Shown piece after piece: positions 5,835 to 52,566 of a stretch of DNA of 64,000 nt. Below the pieces are notes generated by a model, which was given only the letters and a program-made list of their open reading frames with translations, did not search any database and had not been told where the DNA came from. The position numbers and the translations under genes are program-made. Each line of letters begins with the position of its first letter. The stretch's first letter is position 1. Origin of the DNA: a virus; IMG/VR virus record IMGVR_UViG_3300035698_016128, positions 60,120-124,119 of that record, one strand, 5' to 3'.

Positions 5835-6307
5835 CCTCCCATTACGTTTTGATTTAATTAATCTACATGACGAATCATTGCATTAAGCCTGTATTCTAAT
5901 GATTCATTTTCTTTCTTTAATCGCTCGTTCTCGGCCTGGAGTTCTCTTCGATCCGGCATCATGCACAACGGGCAAACCGGCAACTCTGTGTCGAAAGGCT
6001 CGCTGTTCTCTTTCTTCAACCGATCCACCTCCTCCAGCAGGGTGTCCCGATGCTCCCTGATTGTTTTGTGATAGAGGCACTCCGTCACAGGTTCATTTAC
6101 GGCATAATCGAACCGGCACGAACAGATGCCTTCGTTTTCCTCTGCCTCATCAACAGCCTCTTGTTCCAGCAGACCAATTCTGTCCAGCAGGGTGCGGATG
6201 TCTGTTGCGGTAAACTCCACAATGCAGAATGGTGGGTTGTATCGTTCGTACTTATCACGAATCTCTTGCAGGTCATCCATACCCACCTCCCATTACGTTT
6301 TGATTTA
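5835..6307. repeat. 22-bp identical direct repeat CCTCCCATTACGTTTTGATTTA at 5835-5856 and 6286-6307
   Basis: Read directly from the sequence. Confidence 0.9.
5858..6286 (-). CDS. coiled-coil hypothetical protein
   Basis: GGGAGG RBS; flanked by 22-bp direct repeats. Confidence 0.55.
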   Translation of the reverse strand: MGMDDLQEIRDKYERYNPPFCIVEFTATDIRTLLDRIGLLEQEAVDEAEENEGICSCRFDYAVNEPVTECLYHKTIREHRDTLLEEVDRLKKENSEPFDTELPVCPLCMMPDRRELQAENERLKKENESLEYRLNAMIRHVD

Positions 6308-6640
6308 GTTTATCTATTTGTTGTTTATCTATTTGTTGTTTATCTGATCGCTGTGCTGTTTATGGTTGGTTATTGGGCTTTCCTTATTATGTACCACTTA
6401 TGCCCTGAAAAGCCAAGGGGATGGGGAAATAATTCATTTGTTTGATTTTGAGGGGCTGAACAGGCTGGCAGGCTAGAAAGGGGCTAATGGGGTATATGAG
6501 GGCTTTGTGGGTATATATAATGATATGCGTGTGAGTGGGTGTTGAGTAAGTGTTGAATGAGTGGGAATGAGTGTGAGTGAGTGTGAATTGGTGTGAGTGA
6601 GTGTGAGTGGGGGTTGATGCGGGTATGAGGGTGTGCGGGG
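6305..6640. repeat. G/T-skewed low-complexity tract: 15-bp GTTTATCTATTTGTT tandem and GTGTGAGTGA-like microsatellite
   Basis: Read directly from the sequence. Confidence 0.8.
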
Positions 6641-6850
6641 ATTCGTCCCAAGTGACGGTTAAATGGGACAAATAGGTATGAACCCGCCATGTTTGCCGAA
6701 TTGAACTCGCATAGTGTTTATTATTCGTCCGATATGGCTACAGGTGGGGATAAATGGGGTATCTACTCGTATATACGTAAAAATGGGATGGGGTTTTTTT
6801 GGGAGGGGCAGGTTTTGTTTCAATGTGAGACCTTCGAGTGGTCTATAGGA

Positions 6851-6892
6851 GTTTCGTAGCGGGTTCGAGTGGTTTCGTAGCGGGTTCGAGTG
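6851..6892. repeat. 21-bp tandem repeat x2 (GTTTCGTAGCGGGTTCGAGTG)
   Basis: Read directly from the sequence. Confidence 0.9.
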
Positions 6893-7198
6893 GGGCAGTA
6901 CAACAAGTTGTGTTTTGGTAGATCGTATACAACTTATTGTACAGAGTTACAAAACTCGGGGACGTAGGAAAATGGGGACCCCCGACACGTGGTTACGTTT
7001 TTGTAACATATGCGTATATATTTGTAACAAGTTTTCGGCAGTATTCGCACGCGGTTTTCGCATGCAAGAATTGCAATACGAAATATGTACCCACGTGCGA
7101 AAAACGTAATACGAAACCGTACCAGTACGAAAACGTAACAACATGACAGAAACGTAATCACATTACGAAAGCGTAACAACGTGACGAAAACGTAACAA

Positions 7199-7282
7199 GG
7201 CAGGCAGGGTGACAGCAGGCAGGCAGGGTGACAGCAGGCAGGCAGGGTGACAGCAGGCAGGCAGGGTGACAGCAGGCAGGCA
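7199..7282. repeat. 19-bp perfect tandem repeat x4 plus a partial copy (GGCAGGCAGGGTGACAGCA)
   Basis: Read directly from the sequence. Confidence 0.95.
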
Positions 7283-7314
7283 AAAAAACCCAAGTGACGA
7301 AAAACGGCGTTTCG

Positions 7315-7331
7315 GTGACGTATTACGTCAC
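7315..7331. promoter_or_regulatory. palindrome GTGACGTA-T-TACGTCAC, candidate enhancer/operator
   Basis: Perfect 8-bp arms about 120 bp upstream of the sigma54 promoter at 7449. Confidence 0.5.
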
Positions 7332-7448
7332 TTTCTTGCCTATTTTCAGGGTGCCATATTGACAGAAAAAAAGCTTGAAAAAAAACTTTCGCCTACAAGT
7401 TATTGTATTCATTACATAAAAAAAAACTTTGTACAATTTCTTGTATGT

Positions 7449-7464
7449 TGGCACACGGCATGCA
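7449..7464 (+). promoter_or_regulatory. sigma54 (-24/-12) promoter
   Basis: TGGCACACGGCATGCA, GG-N10-GC; intergenic, upstream of an operon. Confidence 0.7.
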
Positions 7465-7622
7465 ATGCATAGGGTTGATTCGAACACAGCGTCACGCCAG
7501 CCCCAACTAAGTAAATGGCGAAACACAAGGCACCCGAAAGTCAAGGGTGAAAGGCAAGAAGAAAGCCTGCCGAAATAGGAAACCGCCCTTAAGGGTGCCA
7601 CTTAAAATGCGTTTCCAAAAAA

Positions 7623-8188
7623 TTCTAGTTTTTGGCTTTGCAAGCCGTTTCCGTTTTCCTTCAGAAAGGTAGGTGCCATATGGCGAAAGCCAAAAAGCGC
7701 TTCCTGTCAATGAAGGAAATGATGTATTTTCATTTCCTTGCTATTGCAACGGCAGGGGAAAGCACCCTGAAAGCTGGGGCGCTTCTGAAGGCCTATCACG
7801 GGGGGAAAGAAACTTCCCGTGAGGTTGGCAATGTGACCGGCGAATTGTTCGCACCTGCTATCATGCTTCGGCACCTTGAAAGCTTCGGCACAGTTTCAAG
7901 CGCAGAAGCGAATGACGGCACAATCATTCGCCTGTTTGACGGCTTCGGCAAAGAAAGCTTCCGGGTTTTCTTTTCCAAGCGGGGAAAATGGGCGGGCCGC
8001 TATGGTGTTTCTGGCGCAGTGAAAAGCGCTATGGAAAACGCCCTGCCTGATTGTTCCTTTGACTGGGAACAGCAGGGCACAAAAAATTACTTCTTCTCAG
8101 GGAACAATGAAGCGCTTCTGCGCTTCGCACCCTGACAGGCAGTAATCAACCGGGAAACGGAAACGGCTTGCAAAACCCAAAACTAGAA
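7623..8188. repeat. 34-bp inverted repeat pair (7623-7656 / 8155-8188) bracketing a gene
   Basis: TTCTAGTTTTTGGCTTTGCAAGCCGTTTCCGTTT vs AAACGGAAACGGCTTGCAAAACCCAAAACTAGAA; 2 mismatches. Confidence 0.9.
7680..8135 (+). CDS. early protein of unknown family, paralog A
   Basis: RBS AAAGGTAGG; clear paralog of 9934-10440 (AYHGGK, NDGT, SKRGKW, FGVSG/YGVSG, KNY.FSGN). Confidence 0.85.
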   Translation: MAKAKKRFLSMKEMMYFHFLAIATAGESTLKAGALLKAYHGGKETSREVGNVTGELFAPAIMLRHLESFGTVSSAEANDGTIIRLFDGFGKESFRVFFSKRGKWAGRYGVSGAVKSAMENALPDCSFDWEQQGTKNYFFSGNNEALLRFAP

Positions 8189-8204
8189 CAAGAAAGGGGA
8201 AACC

Positions 8205-8291
8205 ATGGAAATTTTTCTTTTTGGCTGTTTTTGGTTTAGCCTGTTTTGCAGTTTCGTCATTCTTTGCATCATGCTCAGCAACAAGTGGTAG
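8205..8291 (+). CDS. 28-aa hydrophobic micropeptide
   Basis: AGGGGAAACC-ATG; MEIFLFGCFWFSLFCSFVILCIMLSNKW. Confidence 0.6.
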   Translation: MEIFLFGCFWFSLFCSFVILCIMLSNKW

Positions 8292-8303
8292 TAGGGGGAA
8301 ACC

Positions 8304-8426
8304 ATGTTAGAAAGCTTGCACCTTCAGTTTTTCACATTGTTCGTTGATGCTGAAGCGCTTCTGTTTTGGAAAAGGGCGTTTCAGGCTTCGGAAAGCATAA
8401 CCGGGGAAAACTGGTTTGTTTTCTGA
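8304..8426 (+). CDS. 40-aa micropeptide
   Basis: AGGGGGAAACC-ATG; MLESLHLQFFTLFVDAEALLFWKRAFQASESITGENWFVF. Confidence 0.6.
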   Translation: MLESLHLQFFTLFVDAEALLFWKRAFQASESITGENWFVF

Positions 8427-8481
8427 GAAAACCGGGGGGAAGGAAACTTCCCCCCCTACAATTTCTTGTAAAGGGGAAACC

Positions 8482-8592
8482 ATGATTTTAGGCTTCTACT
8501 TGATTGCCAACAGGCCGGTTTTCTTGATGCTCACAAACGTGGGGGAAGTTGATCAACTGTTCCAGAAAACAATATGGCTTCAGTTTGTTTGA
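8482..8592 (+). CDS. 36-aa micropeptide
   Basis: AGGGGAAACC-ATG; MILGFYLIANRPVFLMLTNVGEVDQLFQKTIWLQFV. Confidence 0.6.
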   Translation: MILGFYLIANRPVFLMLTNVGEVDQLFQKTIWLQFV

Positions 8593-8641
8593 AGCCGTCA
8601 ACCGGGGGGAAGGAAACTTCCCCCCCCAGAAAGGGGAAAAA

Positions 8642-8851
8642 ATGGAATACGAACACCCAAAAATGAGGAACAAGTTTTTTAAGTTTCTTGGTGACAGCGT
8701 GCTTGAACCACTTTTCTACAAGCTTGGCTTGTGGTACGGCTGTGATGACTGTGATGACTGCGTGAACCACTGGGTTTACAAGGTTTCCGGTTGCAAGGTG
8801 TGCACGCAAAGGAAGTGTGGCAAAATTCTTGACGCAGTGATTTGGAAGTAG
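8642..8851 (+). CDS. small Cys-rich (Zn-binding) protein
   Basis: AAAGGGG RBS; CDDCDDC...CKVC...C. Confidence 0.7.
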   Translation: MEYEHPKMRNKFFKFLGDSVLEPLFYKLGLWYGCDDCDDCVNHWVYKVSGCKVCTQRKCGKILDAVIWK

Positions 8852-8915
8852 GTCAACCGGGGGGAAGGAAACTTCCCCCCAAGCTTTTACAACTTCTTGC
8901 AGAAAGGAAACTGAT

Positions 8916-9155
8916 ATGACACTTGGCAAGGCAAAAAAGCCGAACGGGAAAATGTGTGCAAGGGTAGTTTCGAACGGCTTGGGTGTTGAAATAGAAGTTG
9001 GCTTGCAGAAGGCAGAAAGTGACACACTCATGGCAGTTGGCACCATTCGCCCCAAGTACAAGAATGAAGAAGCGGGCGCGTTTTTCATGACCATGCTGAA
9101 AGAATACGCTGAGGCGCACGGCATTGAATTTGATGTACAGCAATGGGAAGAATAG
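8916..9155 (+). CDS. hypothetical protein
   Basis: AAAGGA RBS; 79 aa. Confidence 0.7.
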   Translation: MTLGKAKKPNGKMCARVVSNGLGVEIEVGLQKAESDTLMAVGTIRPKYKNEEAGAFFMTMLKEYAEAHGIEFDVQQWEE

Positions 9156-9204
9156 TCAACCGTCAACCGGGGGGAAGGAAACTTCCCCCCAGAAAGGGGA
9201 AAGT

Positions 9205-9342
9205 ATGAGAAAGCCTTTCAGCGCAGTACACATTTGTAACAGGTGCAAGCGCAAAGTAGTAATCATCAAACGGCACAAAGCGCTTCCGCTTCCTTACTGC
9301 TACATGTGTGGCAAGTGTTTCAAGAAGGAATACGGCACGTGA
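9205..9342 (+). CDS. small Zn-ribbon protein
   Basis: AAAGGGG RBS; CNRC...CYMC. Confidence 0.65.
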   Translation: MRKPFSAVHICNRCKRKVVIIKRHKALPLPYCYMCGKCFKKEYGT

Positions 9343-9432
9343 ACGGCTTTGAAGGGGGAAGGCGGGTGCAAGCCTGCTTTCCCCTTTTAACACGCTCAAA
9401 CAGGCGCACAGGCGCACGCACGTGGAAGGAAC

Positions 9433-9475
9433 GGGGAAGGGGAAGCCAAGCGCTTTCCTTTCCCCCCTTTTTTTT
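9433..9475 (+). terminator. Rho-independent terminator closing the island operon
   Basis: G-rich/C-rich stem followed by T8. Confidence 0.75.
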
Positions 9476-9933
9476 GTGCCAAGCAGGGCGTGCGTGACCG
9501 CCATACGACCCCGATATCTGTTTAAGCGCCGGTGGATCCTTTGATTTGTGGATCACTACGTGACGACCCCTCGTAGGTTAAGCGCTGGTGGATCCTTTGA
9601 AGTACCAAAGCACTCTCAATCAATCGCTGAGGAATAGACCTATACCTGTGCCTATACGTAGACGTGGAAGAACCGGAAGGGTCGGGAAATATAAGCGAGT
9701 AGGAGGCGAGCGAGTTGATCGTACTCCCCACAGAGTCGAACCCCTTCGCCTACCCGATATCCCTGGAACCCTATCGGTTACGAAAAGAGTTACTAACCCC
9801 CGAGCAGGGAGAAGACCTCCACCCCTCCCCGGTCCACGAGCGGTGGATCCTTTGGCCTTTCCAAAAGGAACCCCCTATCCAACCATAAGCCGGAGTAGGG
9901 GGTTCGTACTACACGATATTCGGTACTACCGGA

Positions 9934-10440
9934 CTACGCGCCTAAGTAGCGCATGAGAGCTGCGGTATTCCCGGAGAAGTAGTAGTTCTTACTTTCGGAC
10001 TGACGTACCCAACCGAACTCATCGTTGGTATTGACCGCTTCAATCTGCGTGCGTGCCTTACCCGACACACCGAACTGCCCCGACCATTTGCCCCTTTTCG
10101 ACAGGAAGAACCGGAATGCTTCGGACCCGCAGTTATCAAAGACGCGAACCACCGTACCATCGTTGCATTCCGCTTCCGTGAACCTGAGATCAGCAGCGCT
10201 CATGACCGACGCCACAATGGCGCTTCCGAGGAGTTTGCCAGTAGGACCGTCAACTGCCCTTTCGGTATCCTTCCCACCGTGGTACGCGGAGTTGAACATT
10301 CTGGCGGTCACATCCTCCGGGGTCATTTCCGGGATGACCGGCGCTTCGGGTTCAACGATGGGTTCCACCGGGGCGATGATGACTTCTTCCGCCTTCGGGG
10401 ATACTGCCTTCTTCCGCCTGATCGTTTTCTTGGTTCCCAT
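9934..10440 (-). CDS. early protein of unknown family, paralog B
   Basis: AAAGGAG RBS before MGTKK; paralog of 7680-8135. Confidence 0.85.
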   Translation of the reverse strand: MGTKKTIRRKKAVSPKAEEVIIAPVEPIVEPEAPVIPEMTPEDVTARMFNSAYHGGKDTERAVDGPTGKLLGSAIVASVMSAADLRFTEAECNDGTVVRVFDNCGSEAFRFFLSKRGKWSGQFGVSGKARTQIEAVNTNDEFGWVRQSESKNYYFSGNTAALMRYLGA

Positions 10441-10503
10441 TTTGAATCTCCTTTCAGAAGGGTTTTGAGTCCCACCACACCACGTGGTGGTACCCGTATA
10501 TAC

Positions 10504-10519
10504 TGCAAGTCGCGTGCCT
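10504..10519 (-). promoter_or_regulatory. sigma54 promoter
   Basis: AGGCACGCGACTTGCA on the minus strand. Confidence 0.75.
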
Positions 10520-10644
10520 AACAAGGGCATCGGAAATAAAAAAAAAAGGTGGTCGTTTCAGGTACTTACAACTCCGCCCAAAACCGTCGTTCAACGAGTG
10601 GGTAAAATAGTGCCGTTTTTGGGCTCTTTGGTGACAATTTGCGC

Positions 10645-10782
10645 CGGAGTACCAAGAGTTACGATATCGTACTCGTATAGTTACAAGAGTGTAACTGGTT
10701 ACATTATCGTACTCGGCAGTTACAGGAGCGTAACAGGATATCCCAGTTACAAAAACGTAACTAGAGTTACATAATCGTAACA
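10645..10782. repeat. dense cluster of GTTAC/GTAAC pentamers
   Basis: About 10 copies in about 135 bp; a similar cluster lies at 6990-7196. Confidence 0.7.
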
Positions 10783-10907
10783 GGATGTCCCCCGAGGCAG
10801 GTTGCTCCTGGTGGATCCTTTGGATATCGGGACGACGAAGATATCCCCAAGGTGGGAATATAGCTGTGGATCAGTTAAGATCTACCGACTCACACAATCA
10901 TCTTATC

Positions 10908-11132
10908 TTATTTGACGGCCTTCAAGCCGGTTCTTCTCTTCTCCTTGTATTCAATCACCAGCTCGCGTTCAACATCCTCCATCACATGACGCATACGCTC
11001 GGCGGCGCGAGTCAACACTTTGTCGACCTCATAGGCTACAGAGCGATCGCCGTGCACGAAGGCTTTCTCGGAAGCCACATACTCCAGGTCGTGGCCCAAC
11101 TGCTTAACGAGCGCGTTAATGAAAGCTTTCAT
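10908..11132 (-). CDS. hypothetical protein
   Basis: AAGGAG RBS. Confidence 0.6.
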   Translation of the reverse strand: MKAFINALVKQLGHDLEYVASEKAFVHGDRSVAYEVDKVLTRAAERMRHVMEDVERELVIEYKEKRRTGLKAVK

Positions 11133-11299
11133 CGTATCTCCTTCCTACAGGCTCAGCCAACGATGCATCAGGTTAAGATGCAGTACGCCGAAGAACGACA
11201 CTTCGCTTGCCATGTTAAGAGTTGCGGGCGGAAGAGTCTGCCCATCATAGAAGTTCCCAAGGGATAACAAATCGTACATGTGAAGGTAGAACATAGGAT

Positions 11300-11581
11300 T
11301 TAGTTCCTTCCCCTAAGGATGTTTCTGATTTCCTCACGATTCTCAATGCCAAGAGTTTCATCACTCAACAGCTGGATGCGCAGTTCCTTCAGCGACACCC
11401 ACAGCGCTTCGAGAACGTCAGGCTCAACGATTGACCTGTACCCCAGAGGCTCATCACCAACTTCGTCGATCAGCGGGGCCAAGACAGTTTGCAGTGACTC
11501 AGCGAGTTGACCAACCAGCCGATACTTGTCAAGCTTGTTGAGCGAGTTGATGTGAGGAAGATCAATTTTCAGCTTTTTCAT
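11300..11581 (-). CDS. hypothetical protein
   Basis: GGGAGG RBS. Confidence 0.65.
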   Translation of the reverse strand: MKKLKIDLPHINSLNKLDKYRLVGQLAESLQTVLAPLIDEVGDEPLGYRSIVEPDVLEALWVSLKELRIQLLSDETLGIENREEIRNILRGRN

Positions 11582-11593
11582 TACGACTCCTCC

Positions 11594-11782
11594 CTACTGG
11601 GTTACCAGCGTCATGCCGACGTTGTCACATTCCATGCAAAAGAGGTTGCATGCATCAGCGATAGGAATGTCATACGATACAAGGTGAACCTCACCGCAGA
11701 CATTACACTTGAACCGACGCGCACCCTTCCTCAGCAGATAACCAAGCAACTTAGACATGATTCCCCCTACTGGCCGATGCAA
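11594..11782 (-). CDS. small Zn-ribbon protein
   Basis: CNVC...CMEC. Confidence 0.55.
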   Translation of the reverse strand: MHRPVGGIMSKLLGYLLRKGARRFKCNVCGEVHLVSYDIPIADACNLFCMECDNVGMTLVTQ

Positions 11783-11982
11783 ACGTTAAGATTGACGTAG
11801 CCCGCTTCCCGCAGATTGATCAGGGCCGTGTTCAACGACCCATCAGTGCGATAGTCACGTGCCTTCACAGCCGATGCAGCCCACGATGTGGTGATTTCCG
11901 ATAAGCCTGTTCGCCTGACTGACCAGACGAACCCGTGTAAAGGATGCTGAATGGTTCTGCGATACATGCGCTTCTTTCCCAT
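11767..11982 (-). CDS. hypothetical protein
   Basis: AAGGA RBS; first gene after the sigma54 promoter at 12040. Confidence 0.6.
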   Translation of the reverse strand: MGKKRMYRRTIQHPLHGFVWSVRRTGLSEITTSWAASAVKARDYRTDGSLNTALINLREAGYVNLNVCIGQ

Positions 11983-12039
11983 GGCGATTCCTTTCCTTTC
12001 TGGTTGACGATAGTTGCCTTTGCCTTCACCCTATATATA

Positions 12040-12055
12040 TGCAAGTCGCATGCCT
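12040..12055 (-). promoter_or_regulatory. sigma54 promoter
   Basis: AGGCATGCGACTTGCA. Confidence 0.75.
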
Positions 12056-12318
12056 AGAAATAGGCGTCGTACGACATCGTATGGACATCGCTAGACAACG
12101 AGTTGGAAAACAATTACTATCCATGGGCAATAATTGTCACTCATGTGACTCTTTACGCATATCGGTCATTAATCGCATATATATAAGGATATCCACACGA
12201 TGATCTACATAAGAGTAGAGTATCTGTATATAAGGGCGTCTTCGAGTATAAAAGTGCAAGTATCTGTATAAAGAGTGGGAGTTGGCAAACAATGAAGTGA
12301 TGTCCTTTAAGAGCGTTT

Positions 12319-12362
12319 ATATACGAGTTATAGAGTTAAGATATACGAGTTATAGAGTTAAG
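12319..12362. repeat. 22-bp tandem repeat x2 (ATATACGAGTTATAGAGTTAAG); also TAGAGTT x3 at 12937-12957
   Basis: Read directly from the sequence. Confidence 0.85.
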
Positions 12363-12618
12363 AGAAGGGAGTTATACAACATTTGGTAACGATCTCAGTT
12401 TCTTGTAAAACTCACGATCTATATATAATATCTATGATATTAGCTTGGATAAAAGCATCGCCCATATAACATCCCCCTGAGAGTAAACAAGTAAGGAGCT
12501 TATCCATACATCGTAAGGAGAACGATATCCCCCAGTCAGAATATAGCTGTGGATCAGTTGATAACAAGCTCTCTATAATAATATATATATAAGAGAGTCT
12601 AAATGTATCTTACCGTAA

Positions 12619-12822
12619 CTACTTAGGCAGATACGCCTTACAGTCGTTGTGCTTATTACGATCAAGGAAGGTTCTTGTCTGTATCCATACCCTTTCCTCC
12701 CTGACCGGGGTGCGTACCAGCTCCCAGTAACCGCAGTGCTTATCGAGCACACACTCCTGATGTAACCCCCTGAAGAGGGTTCTGAACCTACTACACTCTG
12801 AACAAAAGACCTTATCAGGCAT
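12619..12822 (-). CDS. Cys-rich hypothetical protein
   Basis: CSEC...C..HC...C. Confidence 0.55.
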   Translation of the reverse strand: MPDKVFCSECSRFRTLFRGLHQECVLDKHCGYWELVRTPVREERVWIQTRTFLDRNKHNDCKAYLPK

Positions 12823-12956
12823 AGTGTATCCCCTTCTACTAGCGTTAATACATCTCCCCCTATATGGCTACTTCCAACACCGACGGAAAAGGAAGGGATG
12901 GGATATTATTATATATATAGTATATAGAGGGACGAGTAGAGTTTAGAGTTTAGAGT

Positions 12957-13553
12957 TTACATATCGAATGGGAAAGGCGACCCCTTACCCTTACTCTTAC
13001 TCTCCATCTTCGGGGTAGCCTTCTTCCTTCTCGCCTTCTTCGCCAGCGGCCTCGGGGGGGTAGTAGCGATATATTCCTTCTTCTTCGGCTTCGGGGGCGG
13101 AGTAACGATATATGCTAGCTCTACCGCTACGTCCTCGAGAGTAAGAAGAATCTCTATATCGCTCTCGCTGATAAGGAAGATATTACCGTCGAGCGTTCTT
13201 ATAATAACCTCCCGCTCGGTACCGCCAAGAAGAAACGGCGTTTCGACTTCGAACATCTGGTTCGTATATTCCTCGGGGAAGTAATTCGGTAACCCTCCCA
13301 TAAGGCTCCACTTGATAGTCGTAACTCGGGGAAGGTTAAACCCCGCGTCGTTACGTATACATCCCTTTAACATACCGTAGGTCTTACGAGCGTTATGCAA
13401 ATCCATAACTTCTCCTCTTTCTGTGAAAGGTGTACCGAATCTATCGTCCTTACTTAACTCCGCGATAAGGTTCTTTCTTTCTCTACCTCGGAAGACCGGG
13501 TTAGTATCGCCCTCCTTTAATTGATTTATGAACCTAGAGCTTGCCCCTCTCAC
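12957..13553 (-). CDS. hypothetical protein with Pro/Lys-rich tail
   Basis: 198 aa; strongly TG/CA-depleted DNA. Confidence 0.65.
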   Translation of the reverse strand: MRGASSRFINQLKEGDTNPVFRGRERKNLIAELSKDDRFGTPFTERGEVMDLHNARKTYGMLKGCIRNDAGFNLPRVTTIKWSLMGGLPNYFPEEYTNQMFEVETPFLLGGTEREVIIRTLDGNIFLISESDIEILLTLEDVAVELAYIVTPPPKPKKKEYIATTPPRPLAKKARRKKATPKMESKSKGKGSPFPFDM

Positions 13554-13867
13554 ACCGCACCTCCTTCCAGCGGCATCTCGGTAAGACTCGCCAGTACCCG
13601 TTCCTTGGCGTTCGGGAACTCCATGGCGTAAGCCGGATTGGTAGTACCCAGTTCATAGATCGAGCCTGAGAAGGTGACGACCATACCATCACGCTTACCG
13701 ATGATCTTGGAAGAGCGTACTTCAAGACCGTTAAGGTTAGCACGTGGGTGATCAACGGGGACACCGAGAAGATGTGAGGAAATGAGTTCGGGGGCCATAT
13801 ACGGACTCGTCTGCCCGACTATGATTGCCCAGTTGTTGATCGTAATCGGTTTAACTTTATCTGCCAT
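13550..13867 (-). CDS. hypothetical phage protein
   Basis: GGAGG RBS before MADKVK. Confidence 0.65.
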   Translation of the reverse strand: MADKVKPITINNWAIIVGQTSPYMAPELISSHLLGVPVDHPRANLNGLEVRSSKIIGKRDGMVVTFSGSIYELGTTNPAYAMEFPNAKERVLASLTEMPLEGGAV

Positions 13868-13880
13868 TACGCACCTCCTT

Positions 13881-14051
13881 CTAGACTTTGACCAGCCCGA
13901 GCCGACCCGGCTCAACCATTGTCATCTTGTTGAGTTCAGCCATTGCCTCTTCCAAAGAAGTAAAGACACGAGCCGCCTCAATATGTTCGACCCAGCGACG
14001 AATACCGTCACGAGTCTCAAAGTACCACAGGGTACCGACCGGCGATGACAT
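13881..14051 (-). CDS. hypothetical protein
   Basis: Likely start MSSPVG. Confidence 0.45.
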   Translation of the reverse strand: MSSPVGTLWYFETRDGIRRWVEHIEAARVFTSLEEAMAELNKMTMVEPGRLGLVKV

Positions 14052-14257
14052 ACTAATGTGATGCTCCACCTCACACCTCCTTAGAAAGGACAATCGCCCT
14101 TACAGGGCTGATCATCACAGTCCTTGTCTTCGTTCTCGTAATCGTACGGTTCAAGCCCACAACCTTCGCGAGCCCGATTACATTCAGCCATTGCCTCTGT
14201 TTCCTGACCAGCGATGAATGTCTCCCACCGCATACCTCCCATACTGCACCTCCCTTC

Positions 14258-14503
14258 TTACGAGCGGTTATCGGAACGACTCAAGTTACGGCTTGCGTAA
14301 AGGTTATCCATAAGCTGATCGCAAACATCCATCGGCGCGGACTTGTACAATTCGGAAACCCGCTGGCTGAGGATGCTTGTGTACTCCGCATCTATACCGT
14401 GATGCTTGATGCAGACACAGCCACGCTTGACGATAATGTAGTGCTGGCGCTCGCTGACCTTCCACTCTGCCTTGCACACGAAACAAACGACAGGTTTACC
14501 CAT
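14258..14503 (-). CDS. hypothetical protein
   Basis: AAGGAG RBS; CFVC. Confidence 0.55.
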   Translation of the reverse strand: MGKPVVCFVCKAEWKVSERQHYIIVKRGCVCIKHHGIDAEYTSILSQRVSELYKSAPMDVCDQLMDNLYASRNLSRSDNRS

Positions 14504-14678
14504 CTTTAATCTCCTTCTTGGCCTTGTACCACTCGTTGTATTCCTCCCGTTGAGGACACCAGCGCATGTGGGGGTTGCTTTCAGGTCGCCCGTTCATAGT
14601 CCAAGCATACCCTCCGCAAGTACAGTAATGCTTAAAGCTCTTTAATGCCTCCGCCTCTGCCCTTGTCACCCTAGTCAT
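14496..14678 (-). CDS. small Zn-binding protein
   Basis: HYCTCG...H...C. Confidence 0.55.
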   Translation of the reverse strand: MTRVTRAEAEALKSFKHYCTCGGYAWTMNGRPESNPHMRWCPQREEYNEWYKAKKEIKDG

Positions 14679-14883
14679 CCTCCACTGTGCTGACCTTGAT
14701 CTGGTTAACAGCCTTCATGTTGGTCTGAAGGTTCTTGATCACATCCCTATGGTGCTCGAAGACCAGATTCTTGGCGGCTCCAAGAGTCTTCTGTGCGTTG
14801 TGATACTCCGGGTTACCTTCCTTAACCCTGAAGATCCAACTACATGAGCCATCAACGAGGGCGAGATACCTTGCTACTGCCAT
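14671..14883 (-). CDS. hypothetical protein
   Basis: GGAGG RBS before MAVARY. Confidence 0.55.
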   Translation of the reverse strand: MAVARYLALVDGSCSWIFRVKEGNPEYHNAQKTLGAAKNLVFEHHRDVIKNLQTNMKAVNQIKVSTVEDD

Positions 14884-15254
14884 CACTTCACCTCCTTGGC
14901 CAATCGCAGAAGAGCAGTTTAACATAGGAGGACATGATGTACACCGACTCAGGTATCCACGTTACACCATCAGCGCAGAGTACAAGAAAGTATGGTGCGA
15001 CGTACAATCCCTTGACGATCACGCCCCCATTGTCCTCATAGTAATGAGTTGGAGTCAACATTCCCTTCTCCTTATCTTACTTCTTGTGCGGTTGCAAGAC
15101 TGTACTCACTGAAGTAGAGGATGAAGCACCCATGTTTGGTGTTCATATCTTCCAGGATGTCATCCGTAACTTCCGTCTGTCCAACGTTGAAGTCATAACA
15201 GCAGGAGTTCAGCCACCAATCGTAGAATGTAAGCCAGAACATAATTGCCTCCGT

Positions 15255-15635
15255 CTAAAGTAGTTTTCCACAAAGAGCCATTAACCGCTGAGCAATATCG
15301 AGATGTTCGGCTTGCTGTGCCTCTGTGAACGGAGTGCCATTGATTTCAGCCAACCGAATAATCTCACTGGCGGAACCAAGAAATGATTTCTCCCAAAAGG
15401 CCATTTCTTCTTTGATCGGTACAGGCTCGTCTGCCTGTTTGACCATAGCCCTGATCGCATCTTTAGTAGGCATGGTATAGAATGGAGCACCCAAGTTGAT
15501 ACACTCCCCATCGCTGTTCTCAACATCATAGTAGTCGATGATACCTTCAGGTGTCTCCGAGTCCCAACACCCATAGACGTAATACGTCATATTGTCAATG
15601 AAATAGACAGTGGTTATCTCGCTTCCCGTTTTCAT
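15255..15635 (-). CDS. hypothetical protein
   Basis: AAAGGAG RBS before MKTGSE; follows the sigma54 promoter at 15676. Confidence 0.65.
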   Translation of the reverse strand: MKTGSEITTVYFIDNMTYYVYGCWDSETPEGIIDYYDVENSDGECINLGAPFYTMPTKDAIRAMVKQADEPVPIKEEMAFWEKSFLGSASEIIRLAEINGTPFTEAQQAEHLDIAQRLMALCGKLL

Positions 15636-15675
15636 TTTCCTATCTCCTTTTCTGGTTGGTGTTACCCTTATTAGT

Positions 15676-15691
15676 TGCAAGTCGTATGCCA
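15676..15691 (-). promoter_or_regulatory. sigma54 promoter
   Basis: TGGCATACGACTTGCA. Confidence 0.8.
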
Positions 15692-15786
15692 AGCAAAAAC
15701 CCGTCTATAGACTATGCGATAGGTGTCTGCTTCTCGGTCCATAGGTAATTGTTTTCTTCTTTTGGGTAATCCCTTACCCACTCGTT

Positions 15787-15954
15787 TTACCATACGACAA
15801 CATAGCCTTCCCTATCGGCTATCTCCACCAATGTATCCCAGTTATCTTCGACCCACTTGGTGTGCTTATCGCACGAGTCCTTTTCAAACTTCCTGATGCG
15901 CTCTGCAACACGCCCACCTGCCTCATCCATATCTATTACATTTGACTCGTCCAT
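15787..15954 (-). CDS. 55-aa acidic hypothetical protein
   Basis: AAAGGAG RBS; MDESNVIDMDEAGG; follows the promoter at 15996. Confidence 0.6.
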   Translation of the reverse strand: MDESNVIDMDEAGGRVAERIRKFEKDSCDKHTKWVEDNWDTLVEIADREGYVVVW

Positions 15955-15995
15955 AATGTGGCTCTCCTTTCAAGTGTTGGTTCACCATTATATGA

Positions 15996-16011
15996 TGCAA
16001 GTCGTATGCCA
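15996..16011 (-). promoter_or_regulatory. sigma54 promoter
   Basis: TGGCATACGACTTGCA, identical to the site at 15676. Confidence 0.8.
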
Positions 16012-16360
16012 ACACTTGGCGACGGTCTTAGATATATATGAGTAATCCACGGAGCTCTATGGTGACGAAATACGGCACCCGATGACGCAAATTGTCACCG
16101 GGGCCGTCAGACAGTCTAAGGTAGGATGTTATGTAAGAGCCCTGACTCTACGCCTTCTTGACCTTGCCGGTTCCCGGGACAGAGGCCGCCGCACGAGCAC
16201 GCTTCATGCCACGCGGAGCATTGGGGTTCTTCTGTCCGGTGTTGCGGTTCTTCGAGCAGTTGCTCCGTGCGCCACACGCATCGTAACACGCCTTAACCCT
16301 GAATCCTGTACAAGCCATCTCATCTTCTCCTTCGTACCTTCTTGGGTTTAATCCGGTTGG

Positions 16361-49005: not shown

Positions 49006-49565
49006 AGTTACTACATGGCTATATAATGTAGGCCATGAGAATGATGCTACTCACATGGACTCCTTCCATGACAGTTATATCGAAGCCTGCACTTACATCA
49101 AAGATTTTGTGGAGTTTATCAAAGACGAAAATGCAGACTTCTTCATGATAGAAAGCGAGTGACCCCGGCATGGAAAATCCTTCTGTACGTATTGATTTCT
49201 TTGGCCCACAGACATGGATACAGCGGTGGCGCAACATCTTTATCATATGCAAGAAATCAAATGAGATGCGCAAAATCACCGGCTACCGTGCAAAGTGGAG
49301 GACTATCAAGAGTTTCATTTGGTACCTGCACATGACGCGATGCTCCAAGAAGGCTGGAAGTTGGATGTATAGGCGCAGCAATGCTCAGGCAGCGGCAGCT
49401 AAAAATGGGCTTGTCCTAAATATTAGCCCGCTTCCGCCAAAGAAGATACGCAAGGAAATGTACAGGCAAATGAATGAAGTCAAGAAGGCCGAAGAAGAAA
49501 TGAAGAGAAGACTTCCAAATTTATATATACCATTCCCTCCCACCGGCAGTCAGGAGCCACAATGA
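48899..49565 (+). other. two small hypothetical CDSs (about 48899-49162, 49170-49565)
   Basis: ORF track and RBSs. Confidence 0.5.
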
Positions 49566-50197
49566 AAGCAGACGTGCTTCGAATTCAAAGAACATTATTC
49601 GCCAGAAACCTCAGTACCACCCATTATGTGGACGGTAAATTCATAGCCGATTGTGTTACACTCTTCTCCCGCCTCAAGTGCCAGAATTGCGGACTGTACG
49701 GACGCGCTATTCTCTGCCCACCGCTTCAAGCCATGACGCTACCGCAATTTGAGACCATTAATGGGTGCCGGGACTACTACCTTCATCATGTCAAAGGGGC
49801 AACAGTCTTCGTGTTTAAGAATGACGGCACTAAGCCGTGGAAACGCAATGAGAAGGAACTTGCACACATTGAGTTTAAAAGACGCTATGGGAGGCAACTC
49901 AAGGGCGTGGAAAACGGTTCTGCAAAGGAAATCAACAAGCAAATGAAGAAGCTTCAAACCCGTATGCGAAAAAGCGGGTTCAAGGCACGTTCTCTTATCG
50001 CTGGTCACTGTGACGTATGCGTGGGGCATCACAGGTGTCCGAACCGTGAGAACCCTCCGTGCAAAAAGGATGGCCTCACAAGCCTGGAGGCTACCGGCAT
50101 TGATGTATACAAAATGCTACACGGGCTGAAGGTATCGTTTGAGTATCCTGCTTTAAACGAGCTCACTCAGGTAACGATGATGGTGGTGGAAAAATGA
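49562..50197 (+). CDS. DUF2284-like metal-binding protein
   Basis: CQNCGLYG...CPP; AGHCDVC...C...C...SLEATGIDV. Confidence 0.75.
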   Translation: MKADVLRIQRTLFARNLSTTHYVDGKFIADCVTLFSRLKCQNCGLYGRAILCPPLQAMTLPQFETINGCRDYYLHHVKGATVFVFKNDGTKPWKRNEKELAHIEFKRRYGRQLKGVENGSAKEINKQMKKLQTRMRKSGFKARSLIAGHCDVCVGHHRCPNRENPPCKKDGLTSLEATGIDVYKMLHGLKVSFEYPALNELTQVTMMVVEK

Positions 50198-50738
50198 AAC
50201 GCTATGATGCATACAAGATTGAAAGAAGAGGCACGCAATTCAGAGTATTACGTAAGATAAAAACTTTTTTCAAAGGAGTGCATTGGCGTGAAATGGGCAA
50301 TAACCACGTTGATATGGGCGGATTAATTACATTTGTACCAAAAATATATAATTGTGAAGAAGATGCGCTTGGCTCAATTGCTAAGATGAGAGAGGCTGAA
50401 TCAAATATTAGCAAAGAATGGAAACAAATAAACAAATTGGGGAAAGACAAATGAAAAAAGCAATCGTATTGTTTGCGCTGGCTATGGCCCTAGCAACTCT
50501 CCCTGCGTGCACAGAGGCAGAAACATATTGGTGTAAGCAAATCGCTGATATGGATGTTAGGCAAGGTAGTTGGGGAGCCTCATCCAAATTCATAATAATA
50601 TTTACAGATAAAACAAAAATTATATATATATGCGACGGAAATAGACCAAGAGATTTCTGTTGGAGTACCCCAATGTCCGGCGGTTTCTTTTGCATGACAA
50701 ATAGGGGAGCAACGTATAGTTCAAGGAGGAGCAAATAA
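50194..50738 (+). other. two small CDSs: 50194-50454 and lipoprotein-like 50451-50738
   Basis: Lipobox-like LPAC. Confidence 0.55.
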
Positions 50739-50739
50739 T

Positions 50740-51360
50740 ATGAACGAAGAAGAACGCATTGCAAAATACTTTGCCGATCATAAGAGTTTCACATGGGCAC
50801 CGCCCAACAATCCCGGCATACGATTGGTTAGAAAAATAAGATTAAAAAATGTTGAGGTTAAGCTTGACATAAAGAAGCTGACGAAGTTAAAATGTTACCT
50901 ATACCAAGTGGAAAAGCTTGGTATCACTGCGCTAAACCTCCAGCAAGAATTCGAAGGCAAGACTCTGATGATATACGAAAAGAAGGGTGGCAACCCCTCT
51001 TCTCGACGCAGGAAGTGTCCGTGGTGCTATGCCCCAACTGATGATTTTTTAGAACACATCAGCGAGGTTCATAACAAAAGCATTACAAATATTGTGTATC
51101 TTAAGTTTCAACAGAACCTTTACAAAGAATTGTTACGTGTCGTGCGGGAAACCCGCTTCTACTTCGCAACCATGTTTCTGAACGCTGGCTGTCAGTTATG
51201 TGATAATCCGGTAATGAAGGGGCGGGAACTGTGCTGTTCCATTCCAACATCGTTTCGCGACAGGGCAAGGAACCTGAGAGTGCTTGGGCTTTATGCAGAC
51301 GGGCTTGATCAGGAGTACCTGACGAACCCTGAAATGGGGCAGATACTTCTCGCACCGTAA
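50740..51360 (+). CDS. C2H2 Zn finger plus DUF2284-like protein
   Basis: CPWC...H...H; FLNAGCQLC...C...RARNL..LG. Confidence 0.6.
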   Translation: MNEEERIAKYFADHKSFTWAPPNNPGIRLVRKIRLKNVEVKLDIKKLTKLKCYLYQVEKLGITALNLQQEFEGKTLMIYEKKGGNPSSRRRKCPWCYAPTDDFLEHISEVHNKSITNIVYLKFQQNLYKELLRVVRETRFYFATMFLNAGCQLCDNPVMKGRELCCSIPTSFRDRARNLRVLGLYADGLDQEYLTNPEMGQILLAP

Positions 51361-51375
51361 GGAGAGTAACCCGCA

Positions 51376-52566
51376 ATGCTATTGACTGTAGAAGAAACTA
51401 ATGTCAATTCTCTATTTTATAAGACAATAAAAGACCATGACCTTCATGGGGAGATACAGCATATACGTGGCACTACTCGCAAAGAAATACAGAATTATAT
51501 GTTCAGGCTTCATACCCCCGCACAGAATATGTTGTTCATCCCATACCGCTACACGAACCCTCCTGCTATCATCGCAGAGACCCTGTGGGTACTAGCTGGC
51601 CGAGATGATATGTGGTTTCTGAAGTACTATCTTAAGAACGCCGTGAAATATAGCGACGACGGTTTAGTATGGCGTGGAGCATACGGGCCACGACTGTGCA
51701 ACTACCCCACCAAAGATGATGAGGGTCGGGGCGTGATCGTTAATCAAATTGACAGGTTGCTTTCTTACATGAGACGGGACCGCCTCACCACACGCGGTAT
51801 GCTGGTAATCCCTGACGGTAGGGATTATCAACTCAACGAGGACGGCGAAGAGAAGATAGATGAACCCTGCACCATATTCGTTCAGTACATGCACCGGGAG
51901 TCAACTCTCAACTGTACAGTAAACATGCGAAGCAACGACATAGTATTAGGATGCTTCAATGTGAACCTATTCGAATGGACATACCTACAGCAACTTATCG
52001 CTAATGAATTGAATACCGCAACTGGTTTCTACACAGTCACCGCAACGAGCATGCACATGTATCAGAATTGGATTAAAGCCCTGCCCCTTCTCATTGACAA
52101 TGAACCTTCCCTTGATATATATTCAGTCATAGAACCTAAGAAGCAAACCCTTAATTGGACGCAGTTTAAAGTAGAGCTTCCGAAGCTATTATATTTCGAA
52201 CAGGAACTACGTAAAACGAGTCATGATCAATTCACTGATTATGCCCTAAGCCTACAGCCAAAACTCCACGAAGACCTTTATGATGCCCTATTGGTGATGA
52301 TGGTTACGCTTGCGCATAAGCAGTCAGCCCACGCTTCATTGGGCGTCCTATTGCCCTTGATGAAGAATGACGTTTGGCTTGTGGCAAGCCTTGAGTATAT
52401 GGTCAGACGGCTAGGCACCACCTTTCACAGCTTGGTACGTAAAATCTTTGAAGAGACCCTTGCTGTACGATATGAAAAATACCAACTCATTTTGTTCAAC
52501 TACATCTTCCATAGCTTGAACGAAAAAGAAGCTAGGGATCGACTAGAAGGAATAAGGGCAAGGTGA
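51376..52566 (+). CDS. thymidylate-synthase-fold protein, dUMP hydroxymethylase-like
   Basis: AETLWVLAGR, GAYGPR, EPCT, MRSNDIVLGCFNVNLFEW, SMHMY; long C-terminal extension. Confidence 0.75.
   Translation: MLLTVEETNVNSLFYKTIKDHDLHGEIQHIRGTTRKEIQNYMFRLHTPAQNMLFIPYRYTNPPAIIAETLWVLAGRDDMWFLKYYLKNAVKYSDDGLVWRGAYGPRLCNYPTKDDEGRGVIVNQIDRLLSYMRRDRLTTRGMLVIPDGRDYQLNEDGEEKIDEPCTIFVQYMHRESTLNCTVNMRSNDIVLGCFNVNLFEWTYLQQLIANELNTATGFYTVTATSMHMYQNWIKALPLLIDNEPSLDIYSVIEPKKQTLNWTQFKVELPKLLYFEQELRKTSHDQFTDYALSLQPKLHEDLYDALLVMMVTLAHKQSAHASLGVLLPLMKNDVWLVASLEYMVRRLGTTFHSLVRKIFEETLAVRYEKYQLILFNYIFHSLNEKEARDRLEGIRAR

What the first reader, a model, noticed from the sequence alone, without database searches (positions are those of the whole stretch)
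6987..9505. 2.5-kb island with no VGAB or VTCB tetramer on either strand
Seen: between CGAC at 6983-6986 and CGAC at 9506-9509, every GA I read is either preceded by T or followed by A, and every TC is either preceded by T or followed by A. I found 0 VGAB/VTCB sites (V=A/C/G, B=C/G/T). A hand count in nrdJ gave 11 per 180 nt, so roughly 150 would be expected here. The constraint reshapes the genes: RBSs read AGGGG, AAGGA or AGGTAGG instead of the GGAG common elsewhere, and GAG, GAT and GAC occur only after T. GATC itself is tolerated as TGATCA (8550). Because both strands obey the rule, the selection is on DNA rather than mRNA. Inference, two options. (a) VGAB/VTCB is the context the phage's own hypermodification machinery targets, and this operon must stay unmodified so host RNAP can read it first; context-specific modification has precedent, such as GA/GGC-directed preQ0 in phage CAjan. 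(b) This is first-injected DNA purged of a host nuclease or toxin target, like the T5 first-step-transfer region.
Basis: partly seen in the sequence, partly recalled or inferred. Interest (0 to 1): 0.93.

Follow-up and report, generated by a model that had tools for sequence, protein, structure and literature searches.

The report
Motif-free early operon in phage
One 2.5-kb early operon of an uncultured salt-lake phage has been purged on both DNA strands of every GA/TC step not shielded by a neighbouring T. Related phages purge all GA/TC at the same genomic position, which points to a short DNA context that these phages cannot afford in their first-used DNA.

Summary
Window 6987-9505 holds 0 VGAB/VTCB sites against about 138 expected. 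Exactly the nine strand-symmetrised tetramers of that class are missing and no other tetramer is. The next-longest gap in the 124-kb genome is 225 nt, and Markov-simulated genomes reach 140-214 nt.

The island matches one transcription unit: upstream repeats, a sigma54-type promoter, seven small ORFan genes and two terminators. It lies where the packaging/structural arm and the early/replication arm diverge.

Four or five related uncultured phages (terL 37-52% identical) each carry one such island at the same position. Their island genes are unrelated, and the ban there is wider: almost all GA/TC is gone, giving roughly 200-codon ORFs almost without Asp or Glu.

In this phage's own sub-clade VGAB is also depleted genome-wide by 17-30%, equally on both strands and with the same flank rule.

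All long island-bearing genomes share a hydroxymethylase plus two Cys-rich proteins, and two complete island-less relatives lack them. The tree allows a single gain or loss, so this link is weak.

My best reading (about 0.5) is that GA:TC is the context of a lineage-encoded DNA-acting enzyme, and the first-used operon is kept free of it. The mechanism, the genome ends and the modification itself are all untested. No paper found in four literature searches describes such an island.

The parts
6987..9505 (.). Island free of VGAB/VTCB on both strands
   Evidence: 0 sites against 137.7 expected. Only the nine VGAB tetramers are absent.
7111..7292 (+). Upstream repeats: four copies of ACGAAAACGTAACAA-like 15-mers (7111-7198) and five tandem 19-mers GGCAGGCAGGGTGACAGCA (7198-7292). 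They may be enhancer or iteron sites.
   Evidence: the repeat finder families D1 and D5. Their function is inferred.
7394..7464 (+). Two TACAA-N4-TTGTA palindromes (7394, 7432), then a sigma54-type -24/-12 element TGGCACACGGCATGCA at 7449-7464
   Evidence: Pattern scan: 8 matches in the genome against 0.4 in shuffles. Repeat family D4.
7680..8135 (+). g1, 151 aa, ORFan. It has a paralog outside the island.
   Evidence: ORF with RBS. 46% identical to 9934-10530(-). No Pfam or PHROG match.
8205..8291 (+). g2, 28-aa hydrophobic peptide
   Evidence: ORF with AAAGGGGAAACC RBS
8304..8426 (+). g3, 40 aa
   Evidence: ORF with RBS
8482..8592 (+). g4, 36 aa
   Evidence: ORF with RBS
8642..8851 (+). g5, 69 aa, Cys-rich (CDDCDDC...CKVC...C)
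   Evidence: ORF with RBS. No family match.
8916..9155 (+). g6, 79 aa
   Evidence: ORF with RBS. No family match.
9205..9342 (+). g7, 45 aa, zinc-ribbon-like (CxxC...CxxC)
   Evidence: ORF with RBS. Only weak sub-threshold Pfam matches.
8425..9190 (+). Four intergenic copies of a GGGGGGAAG-GAAA-CTTCCCCCC hairpin at 8425-8455, 8595-8625, 8850-8880 and 9160-9190
   Evidence: Repeat family D2. Folds at -19.9 kcal/mol.
9349..9475 (+). Two intrinsic terminators that close the unit: 9349-9394, and 9433-9465 followed by a T-run
   Evidence: Fold energies -30.9 (z -6.4) and -25.1 kcal/mol. Terminator scan.
9934..10530 (-). Paralog of g1 just outside the island, used as a natural control
   Evidence: 29 VGAB/VTCB sites in 597 nt against 0 in 456 nt of g1. 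Fifteen of 53 shared residues are touched by a site in the paralog and recoded in g1.
6287..6986 (.). Non-coding spacer between the leftward exo-terS-terL operon and the island. It holds 10-nt-periodic TGAGTG repeats (6526-6623, itself VGAB-free for 220 nt) and 2 x 21-nt repeats (6851-6892).
   Evidence: A role in packaging or replication is a guess.
49562..52566 (+). Cassette that co-occurs with islands: DUF2284 protein (49562-50197), a Cys-rich partner of about 200 aa (50740-51360), and a MilA-like TS-fold hydroxymethylase (51376-52566)
   Evidence: Pfam. Same gene order in G001, G004 and G005; present in G011; absent in G006 and G007. Best PDB match is CMP 5-hydroxymethylase MilA at 2.7e-21, with Asn where MilA has Asp.

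Best explanation
The island is one complete early transcription unit. It comprises upstream repeats, a sigma54-type promoter, seven small fast-evolving genes and two terminators, and it sits where the packaging/structural arm and the early/replication arm diverge.

Purifying selection at the DNA level has removed from it every occurrence of a short context centred on the GA:TC step. In this phage the banned form is VGAB. The step is tolerated only if a T lies immediately 5' of it on either strand. In relatives the banned form is any GA/TC.

I infer that this context is the recognition site of a DNA-acting enzyme system encoded by the phage lineage. The most likely candidate is context-specific hypermodification of hydroxymethyl-uracil at T in TC. 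It may be paired with a frequent-cutting nuclease, as in a virus-borne restriction-modification system.

On this reading the first-used operon is kept as plain DNA that can be neither modified nor cut. Host RNA polymerase and host factors can then use it at time zero, and/or modification-directed or site-directed nucleases cannot hit it before its products act.

Shown: the ban, its symmetry, its match to the operon, its positional conservation, its variable specificity, and the genome-wide weaker avoidance.

Inferred: the enzyme, the modification, the timing and the order of DNA entry.
For: - The ban is absolute and limited to the exact motif.
- Codon-level recoding is visible, including against a paralog 400 nt away.
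- The island's edges lie within about 30-100 nt of the regulatory repeats on the left and the terminators on the right.
- G004, G005, G011/G002 and G003 each have one GA/TC void. G001 has a weaker one. All lie 5-9 kb upstream of terL and are transcribed away from it.
- The voids are extreme. In G004 the gap is 918 nt against a second-longest gap of 48 nt.
- Island proteins share no similarity between genomes. The constraint therefore belongs to the place, not to the genes.
- Specificity differs between lineages: NGAN against VGAB.
- Only this phage's sub-clade shows genome-wide VGAB depletion against synonymous shuffles: 0.70-0.83 against 0.93-1.03 elsewhere.
- In the 4x4 flank matrix all nine V..B cells are below 1 on both strands. 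Twelve of the fourteen T-row and A-column cells lie above 1, and the lowest is 0.98.
- The hydroxymethylase/DUF2284 cassette is present in all five long island-bearing genomes and absent from two complete island-less relatives.
- Published precedents: TC/TG-biased thymidine hypermodification (PMC6449724), an NTC-preferring phage T-dioxygenase (PMC13229309), and virus-encoded endonucleases with 2-4 bp sites plus protective modification (PMC7019647).
Against: - No modification has been observed.
- No 5-hmdU DNA kinase, pyrophosphorylase, DpdA or recognisable nuclease was found.
- The link between cassette and island is compatible with a single gain or loss on the terL and portal trees.
- A protective modification context should not be depleted genome-wide. 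That depletion needs an added assumption, such as a cost or a risk per site.
- Palindromes containing GA/TC are not clearly less avoided than other palindromes.
- G003's island holds only a promoter and a short transcript, so an essential early protein cannot be the general reason.
- Other sigma54-type promoters of this phage carry VGAB in their spacers, so the promoter type alone does not demand the ban.
- Phage M6, a characterised hypermodified-T phage, has no dinucleotide void.
Confidence: 0.5

Rival explanations
1. This is pure defence evasion with no link to the phage's own chemistry. The island is the leading, first-entering DNA. It is purged of the target of a host nuclease or other DNA-directed defence, as in the T5 first-step-transfer region and the T7-like leading regions. 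The rest of the genome is protected by products of the early genes.
For: - VGAB is avoided genome-wide in this sub-clade, as restriction sites are.
- Island+ genomes avoid palindromes in general, with observed/expected of 0.81-0.96 against about 1.0 in controls.
- The island genes are hypervariable ORFans, as anti-defence genes tend to be.
- The island lies beside a repeat-rich non-coding spacer upstream of the terS-terL operon, where a genome end could be.
- Published precedents: PMC10644984 and PMC12455610.
Against: - No known cellular defence reads a dinucleotide or a degenerate tetramer that still occurs thousands of times in the genome.
- The same GA:TC core is conserved across phages of 31-46% GC from different samples, which suggests a phage-borne agent rather than a host-borne one.
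- The genome ends are unknown.
- Contig depth over the island is not doubled, so it is not part of a long terminal repeat (weak evidence).
Confidence: 0.2
2. This is a replication-origin constraint. The island is the origin, with iterons, an AT-rich stretch and a priming transcript. The GA/TC context is excluded because it would be used by the replisome (for example as a primase start site) or would disturb initiator binding or R-loop formation.
For: - The island sits at the switch of gene orientation, and at or near the turning point of cumulative GC skew. In G004 the skew minimum is at 68769 and the island ends at 68671.
- There are iteron-like repeats and an AT-rich stretch at 6987-7440.
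- G003's island is only a promoter plus a short transcript.
Against: - The skew turn is expected from gene orientation alone.
- In G000 the skew minimum lies 8.5 kb to the right of the island.
- The ban covers 2 kb of ordinary coding sequence.
- This reading does not explain why VGAB is depleted across the whole genome.
Confidence: 0.1
3. Selection acts on RNA. An endoribonuclease from the host or the phage cuts at these contexts, and the early mRNA avoids them.
For: GGAG-type ribosome-binding sites are replaced in the island. T4 RegB, which cuts GGAG, is a textbook analogue; I cite it from my own knowledge.
Against: - Sense VGAB and sense VTCB are both zero in the island, and both are depleted equally genome-wide at 0.84 and 0.84.
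- The 460 nt upstream of the promoter obey the ban too.
- An RNase would not read both a motif and its reverse complement.
Confidence: 0.03
4. The island is not functional. It is a chance effect, an assembly chimera, or a recent insertion from a donor with a different composition.
For: The island's base composition differs somewhat from the rest of the genome, with more AA/TT and GG/CC and fewer AT/TA steps.
Against: - Identical sequence is present in contigs of at least four salt-lake runs, and two of them cross the right edge.
- The probability of zero sites is about e^-138.
- A native paralog and the phage's own promoter type lie inside the island.
- Relatives carry independent islands, with unrelated genes, at the same locus.
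Confidence: 0.02

Closest known systems
T5 first-step-transfer region and leading regions of T7-like phages (site avoidance in first-injected DNA)
   Same: A short early-gene region lacks nuclease-target sites that are tolerated elsewhere in the same genome, and its gene content is variable (PMC10644984, PMC12455610).
   Different: In those phages only a few 5-13 bp sites of particular host systems are missing. Here a dinucleotide or degenerate tetramer is excluded 100-200 times over, which reshapes codons, ribosome-binding sites and amino-acid content. Position at a genome end is not shown, and the region is not in a long terminal repeat.
Context-biased thymidine hypermodification in phages M6, ViI and PhiW-14, and phage T-dioxygenases
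   Same: There is a TS-fold hydroxymethylase with a uracil-type Asn, plus published TC/TG or NTC preferences of the modifying enzymes (PMC6449724, PMC13229309, PMC8989533).
   Different: No 5-hmdU DNA kinase, pyrophosphorylase or TET/JBP enzyme was found here. The conserved partners are two uncharacterised Cys-rich DUF2284-type proteins. M6 has no dinucleotide void, and no modification-free island is described in those papers.
Chlorovirus restriction-modification pairs with 2-4 bp sites (CviJI RGCY, Nt.CviPII CCD, Nt.CviQXI RAG)
   Same: These are virus-encoded enzymes that read very short degenerate contexts, degrade host DNA, and are matched by protective modification of the viral genome (PMC7019647).
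   Different: Those are eukaryotic giant viruses that use methylation. No site-free island was seen for them in that review, and no nuclease has been identified here.
Vertebrate CpG islands
   Same: A sharply bounded, promoter-linked stretch whose content of a modifiable dinucleotide differs from the rest of the genome.
   Different: The sign is reversed. CpG islands keep the dinucleotide because they are unmodified, whereas this island has lost it altogether through selection.

Membership tests
First-injected (leading / first-step-transfer) region with target-site avoidance | The region lies at the genome end that enters the cell first | not testable with these tools
   All records are metagenome contigs. 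The 'terminal repeats' of G005, G006 and G007 are 50-144 nt assembly overlaps or simple repeats. Only contigs, not raw reads, could be laid.
First-injected (leading / first-step-transfer) region with target-site avoidance | Target sites are absent from the region but present elsewhere in the genome | tested here: met
   0 sites in the island against 6646 in the genome.
First-injected (leading / first-step-transfer) region with target-site avoidance | The region lies within a long terminal repeat, as in T5 | tested here: not met
   Contig word depth is 4.95 over the island against 4.5-5.2 in the flanks in run X1. This is a coarse measure.
5-hmdU-derived thymidine hypermodification pathway | A TS-fold dUMP hydroxymethylase | tested here: inconclusive
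   PF00303 match at 8e-18. The best solved relative is CMP hydroxymethylase MilA at 2.7e-21. The query has Asn where MilA has Asp, which suggests uracil. The substrate has not been assayed.
5-hmdU-derived thymidine hypermodification pathway | A 5-hmdU DNA kinase and/or aGPT-type pyrophosphorylase | tested here: inconclusive
   No such Pfam family appeared among 63 proteins scanned from G000, 53 in the window and 10 in the left arm. The genome is only 75% complete, and not every ORF was scanned.
5-hmdU-derived thymidine hypermodification pathway | A modified base is present in virion DNA | not testable with these tools
   This needs LC-MS or native-DNA sequencing.
DpdA / 7-deazaguanine modification in GA context (phage CAjan type) | A TGT-family DpdA transglycosylase | tested here: not met
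   PF01702 was absent from G000, G001, G004 and G005, while it matched in all 14 control genomes.
Phage 5-methylpyrimidine (T) dioxygenase pathway | A TET/JBP-fold dioxygenase | tested here: inconclusive
   PF12851 was not found, but the control genomes did not match either.
Sigma54-dependent promoter | A -24 GG and -12 GC element with fixed spacing (TGGCAY-N5-TTGCW) | tested here: met
   TGGCACACGGCATGCA lies at window 7449. The genome has 8 matches against 0.4 in shuffles. The motif is also inside the islands of G011/G002 and G003.
Sigma54-dependent promoter | An enhancer-binding AAA+ activator and the host sigma54 | not tested
   The only AAA+ protein seen is MoxR/CbbQ-like. The host is unknown.

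The most novel reading that the evidence does not exclude
A clade of large uncultured phages carries a restriction-modification-like system that acts on the GA:TC dinucleotide step. It may be built on hydroxymethyl-uracil and two uncharacterised Fe-S/Zn proteins. These phages keep one 'clean' early operon, a reverse CpG island, that is invisible to this chemistry. Whatever gene lands there must be rewritten, even to the point of proteins without Asp or Glu. The flank rule of the enzyme (NGAN against VGAB) can be read directly from the genome.
Probability: 0.4. Interest if true: 0.92.

Novelty: new variant of a known kind. Interest (0 to 1): 0.88.

Why it matters
- It is a purely sequence-readable footprint of a DNA-acting enzyme's specificity, down to the flanking bases, in phages that have never been cultured.
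- If the context is a modification site, the island shows that phages can programme where their DNA stays unmodified, which has not been described.
- If the context is a nuclease target, it is by far the most extreme case of leading-region site avoidance.
- In either case it defines a testable candidate system (TS-fold hydroxymethylase plus two DUF2284-type proteins).
- It supplies natural examples of genes recoded without a whole dinucleotide.
- It offers a simple genome-scan signature, a single dinucleotide void, for finding more such phages.

Tried and rejected
- DNA searches of the island and of 20 kb of the window against cultured phages found nothing. terL by tblastn reached at most 33% identity.
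- Single-protein searches for g1 and for the exonuclease in IMG/VR found nothing. g1 has no relative among 5.8 billion proteins other than itself.
- The hairpin repeat was not found in IMG/VR.
- Sequencing runs: no RNA holder was listed, and only Logan contigs were available. No variants, read starts or molecule ends could be read from them.
- The metagenome scan with terS gave only short contigs that do not reach the island position.
- The palindrome observed/expected test, which asked whether GA/TC-containing sites are shielded from restriction, was inconsistent between 4-mers and 6-mers.
- AlphaFold models of the two cassette proteins had low confidence (pLDDT 57 and 69). Foldseek gave no match, and the PDB sequence search and a profile-profile comparison of the two proteins gave nothing.
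- The hydrophobic island protein of G004 looked PnuC-like by eye, but it has no Pfam match, so I dropped that reading.
- Rfam gave only sub-threshold matches in the island.
- Sigma70-type promoter matches were no more frequent than chance.
- Only the first 50 kb of phage ViI were scanned, and no void was seen.
Full report
**Observation**

The window is the right half of a 124,119-bp IMG/VR virus record, estimated 75% complete. VGAB and VTCB are reverse complements, so they form one strand-symmetric motif.

- A script finds 3507 sites in the window and 6646 in the genome, one per 18.7 nt.
- There is a single gap of 2523 nt, from CGAC at 6983 to CGAC at 9506. The next-longest gap is 225 nt.
- Thirty third-order Markov genomes gave longest gaps of 140-214 nt.
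- Of the 136 strand-symmetrised tetramers, exactly the nine that make up VGAB are absent from the island. Each was expected 10-22 times and together 137.7 times. No other tetramer is absent.
- GA itself is common in the island, but only as TGA or GAA. VGAA/TTCB rises to 141 against 84 expected.

**Anatomy**

The island lies where gene orientation switches. To the left, a minus-strand operon runs through small genes, a 5'-3' exonuclease, the small terminase and then the large terminase and portal. To the right, plus-strand early and replication genes follow.

The island holds, in order:
- 15-nt and 19-nt repeat arrays (7111-7292);
- an AT-rich stretch with two TACAA-N4-TTGTA palindromes;
- a sigma54-type -24/-12 element at 7449, with 8 matches in the genome against 0.4 in shuffles;
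- a leader of about 215 nt;
- seven small genes with AAAGGGG-type ribosome-binding sites;
- four copies of a GAAA-tetraloop hairpin between the genes;
- two strong terminators at 9349-9394 and 9433-9475.

The first VGAB site to the right comes about 30 nt after the last terminator. The island is thus co-extensive with one transcription unit and its upstream regulatory DNA. None of the five of its seven proteins that were scanned (g1, g3, g4, g5, g6) has a Pfam match, and g7 has only sub-threshold ones. g1, g5 and g6 have no PHROG match, and g1 has no relative among 5.8 billion proteins. g2 was not scanned.

**Selection acts on DNA**

- The seven proteins written with the genome's codon usage would carry about 63 sites. 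They carry none.
- Glu is GAA in 29 of 31 codons. Asp occurs only after a codon that ends in T, and it is half as frequent as elsewhere.
- g1 has a paralog 400 nt beyond the island's edge, 46% identical. The paralog has 29 sites in 597 nt. Fifteen of the 53 shared residues are touched by a site in the paralog and written differently in g1.
- Both orientations of the motif are absent, and so is the 460 nt upstream of the promoter. An mRNA-level cause is therefore very unlikely.

**Relatives**

No cultured phage is close. A full HMMER search with the large terminase, followed by an alignment-based scan of IMG/VR, gave 33 related loci. I fetched seven further long records (G001, G004-G008, G011) and two short ones (G002, G003) whole.

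| Record | Void | Notes |
|---|---|---|
| G004 (97 kb) | 918 nt without GA/TC | second-longest gap 48 nt |
| G005 (140 kb) | 524 + 158 + 129 nt | |
| G011 (122 kb; G002 is a near-identical or overlapping contig) | 1560 nt with 7 sites | about 213 expected |
| G003 (20 kb) | 248 nt | |
| G001 (88 kb) | weaker, partly low-complexity version | |

Each of these has one extreme void and no other. In every case where terL lies on the same contig (all but G011, whose contig ends before terL) the void lies 5-9 kb upstream of terL. Where its genes or promoter can be oriented (G004, G005, G011/G002, G003) it is read away from terL. In G004 and G011 it sits at or near the turn of cumulative GC skew, and in G005 near a local turn.

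In these relatives the ban is on the dinucleotide itself. TGA and GAA contexts are gone as well. Their predicted island ORFs of about 200 codons have good AAGGGG-type ribosome-binding sites and almost no Asp or Glu. One caution applies: without TGA stops, long ORFs arise more easily in such DNA.

Island proteins of different genomes share no detectable similarity. G003's island holds only a sigma54-type promoter and a short transcript. Sigma54-type elements also sit inside the islands of G011/G002.

Two complete relatives (G006, G007) and a more distant one (G008) have no void. Several other terL relatives, with 8-10 kb of upstream sequence held, have none in that stretch.

**A genome-wide echo**

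I shuffled synonymous codons within genes as a null model.

- VGAB outside the island is at 0.83 of expectation in this genome (z about -24). TGAB, VGAA and TGAA are all above 1.
- The closest relatives (terL or terS 62-78% identical: L008, L010, L107, L108) show 0.70-0.81. All other relatives show 0.93-1.03.
- In the 4x4 matrix of flanking bases all nine V..B cells are below 1, for GA and for TC in the sense strand alike (0.84 and 0.84). In this genome twelve of the fourteen T-row and A-column cells are above 1, and the lowest is 0.98.

It is weak everywhere and absolute in the island. It also means that a VGAB site is a liability, not an asset.

**What reads GA:TC?**

All long island-bearing genomes share a three-gene cassette. 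It is in the same gene order in G000, G001, G004 and G005, and G011 has at least its DUF2284 gene. It consists of:
- a DUF2284 metal-binding protein;
- a second Cys-rich protein of about 200 aa;
- a TS-fold enzyme whose best solved relative is the CMP hydroxymethylase MilA. It has Asn where MilA has Asp, which is the uracil-type residue.

G006 and G007 lack the cassette, and G008 has only a distant TS. This genome also has a dCMP deaminase, several glycosyltransferases and methyltransferases, and radical-SAM enzymes.

Two points limit this link. The terL and portal trees allow a single gain or loss, so the association counts as one event. No TGT/DpdA is present, which rules out the CAjan-type route in the sequence held.

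The literature gives three precedents:
- a TC/TG bias of thymidine hypermodification in M6, ViI and PhiW-14 (PMC6449724);
- an NTC-preferring phage T-dioxygenase (PMC13229309);
- virus-encoded endonucleases with 2-4 bp sites and matching protective modification (PMC7019647).

The flank rule here can be restated simply: the step is ignored if a T sits 5' of it on either strand. This would suit an enzyme that is sterically blocked by a 5-substituted pyrimidine. That is inference only.

**Why a clean operon?**

Two readings fit, and they can be combined.

- *Template reading.* The operon must serve unaltered host machinery at time zero, so it must stay free of bulky bases. Supporting this, the phage has its own sigma-like factor for later genes.
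- *Leading-DNA reading.* The operon is the first DNA exposed in the cell. It must offer no target, either to a modification-dependent defence or to a site-directed nuclease, until its fast-evolving products act. T5 and T7-like phages do this (PMC10644984, PMC12455610).

The repeat-rich spacer next to the terS-terL operon (6287-6986) would be a natural place for a genome end. That would put the island on the last-packaged, first-ejected side. No data on the genome ends exist, and contig depth argues against a long terminal repeat.

An origin-of-replication constraint is a weaker third option. Chance, artefact, foreign origin and RNA-level selection are effectively excluded.

**Novelty**

None of the four literature searches aimed at this question returned a paper describing a dinucleotide-free or tetramer-free island in a phage. 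The characterised hypermodified phage M6 has none. The closest known kind is site avoidance in first-injected DNA. This case differs in the motif's shortness, in the completeness of the ban, in its effect on protein composition, and in its apparent link to the phage's own chemistry.

I rate it a new variant of a known kind, with a substantial chance of being a new principle.

Noticed in passing
window 7449, 15676, 15996, 17565, 17969, 19403, 21461; G000 30195: Eight TGGCAY-N5-(T/A)TGCA sigma54-type -24/-12 elements against 0.4 expected by chance. Most head small-gene operons right of the island. Two identical ones carry CGAC (a VGAB site) in their spacer. Phage use of sigma54 promoters is rarely reported, as far as I know.
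   Followed up: partly
window 35064-35705 (+): A 213-aa protein with a weak Sigma70 region 2 match, probably a phage sigma factor for later genes.
   Followed up: no
window 9125-9161: In all four salt-lake runs, a contig of much higher depth (7-24x against 3-5x) shares only this 37-nt stretch and continues with unrelated sequence on both sides. A short element appears to be shared with a more abundant genome.
   Followed up: no
window 6526-6623: About ten copies of a 10-nt-periodic TGAGTG-type repeat in the spacer left of the island. This stretch is itself VGAB-free for 220 nt, because every GA follows a T.
   Followed up: partly
window 6928, 7394, 7432, 8457, 8888: Five copies of a 14-nt palindrome TACAA-N4-TTGTA: one just outside the island, two before the promoter, and two after intergenic hairpins. 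It looks like an operator.
   Followed up: no
G004 67787-68404 (-), G005 82700-83311 (+), G011 119664-120275 (+): Predicted island ORFs of about 200 codons with zero to two acidic residues, written without GA or TC. None has a Pfam match.
   Followed up: partly
L008 3646-6513; G003 terL (971 aa): The large terminase of two relatives is interrupted by an intein with a LAGLIDADG domain. The terL of this phage is not.
   Followed up: no
window 31448-34953 (+): A MoxR/CbbQ-type AAA+ ATPase followed by an 808-aa CobT-like VWA protein, shared only with G001.
   Followed up: no
G000 5882-17352 (left of the window): A cluster of radical-SAM enzymes (one B12-binding), FkbM-type and other methyltransferases, and GT1 and GT2 glycosyltransferases on the structural-gene strand. 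It could tailor the virion or the DNA.
   Followed up: partly
flanks of the islands (window 9506-9600; L015 2100-2756; G003 12930-13130 and 13660-13850; G011 119250-119330): Arrays of short repeats rich in GATC/AGATCT/GGATCC abut the islands, and the 2-kb bins around the island have the highest VGAB density in the genome (151 and 165 against a mean of about 107). These may be boundary or stop elements.
   Followed up: no
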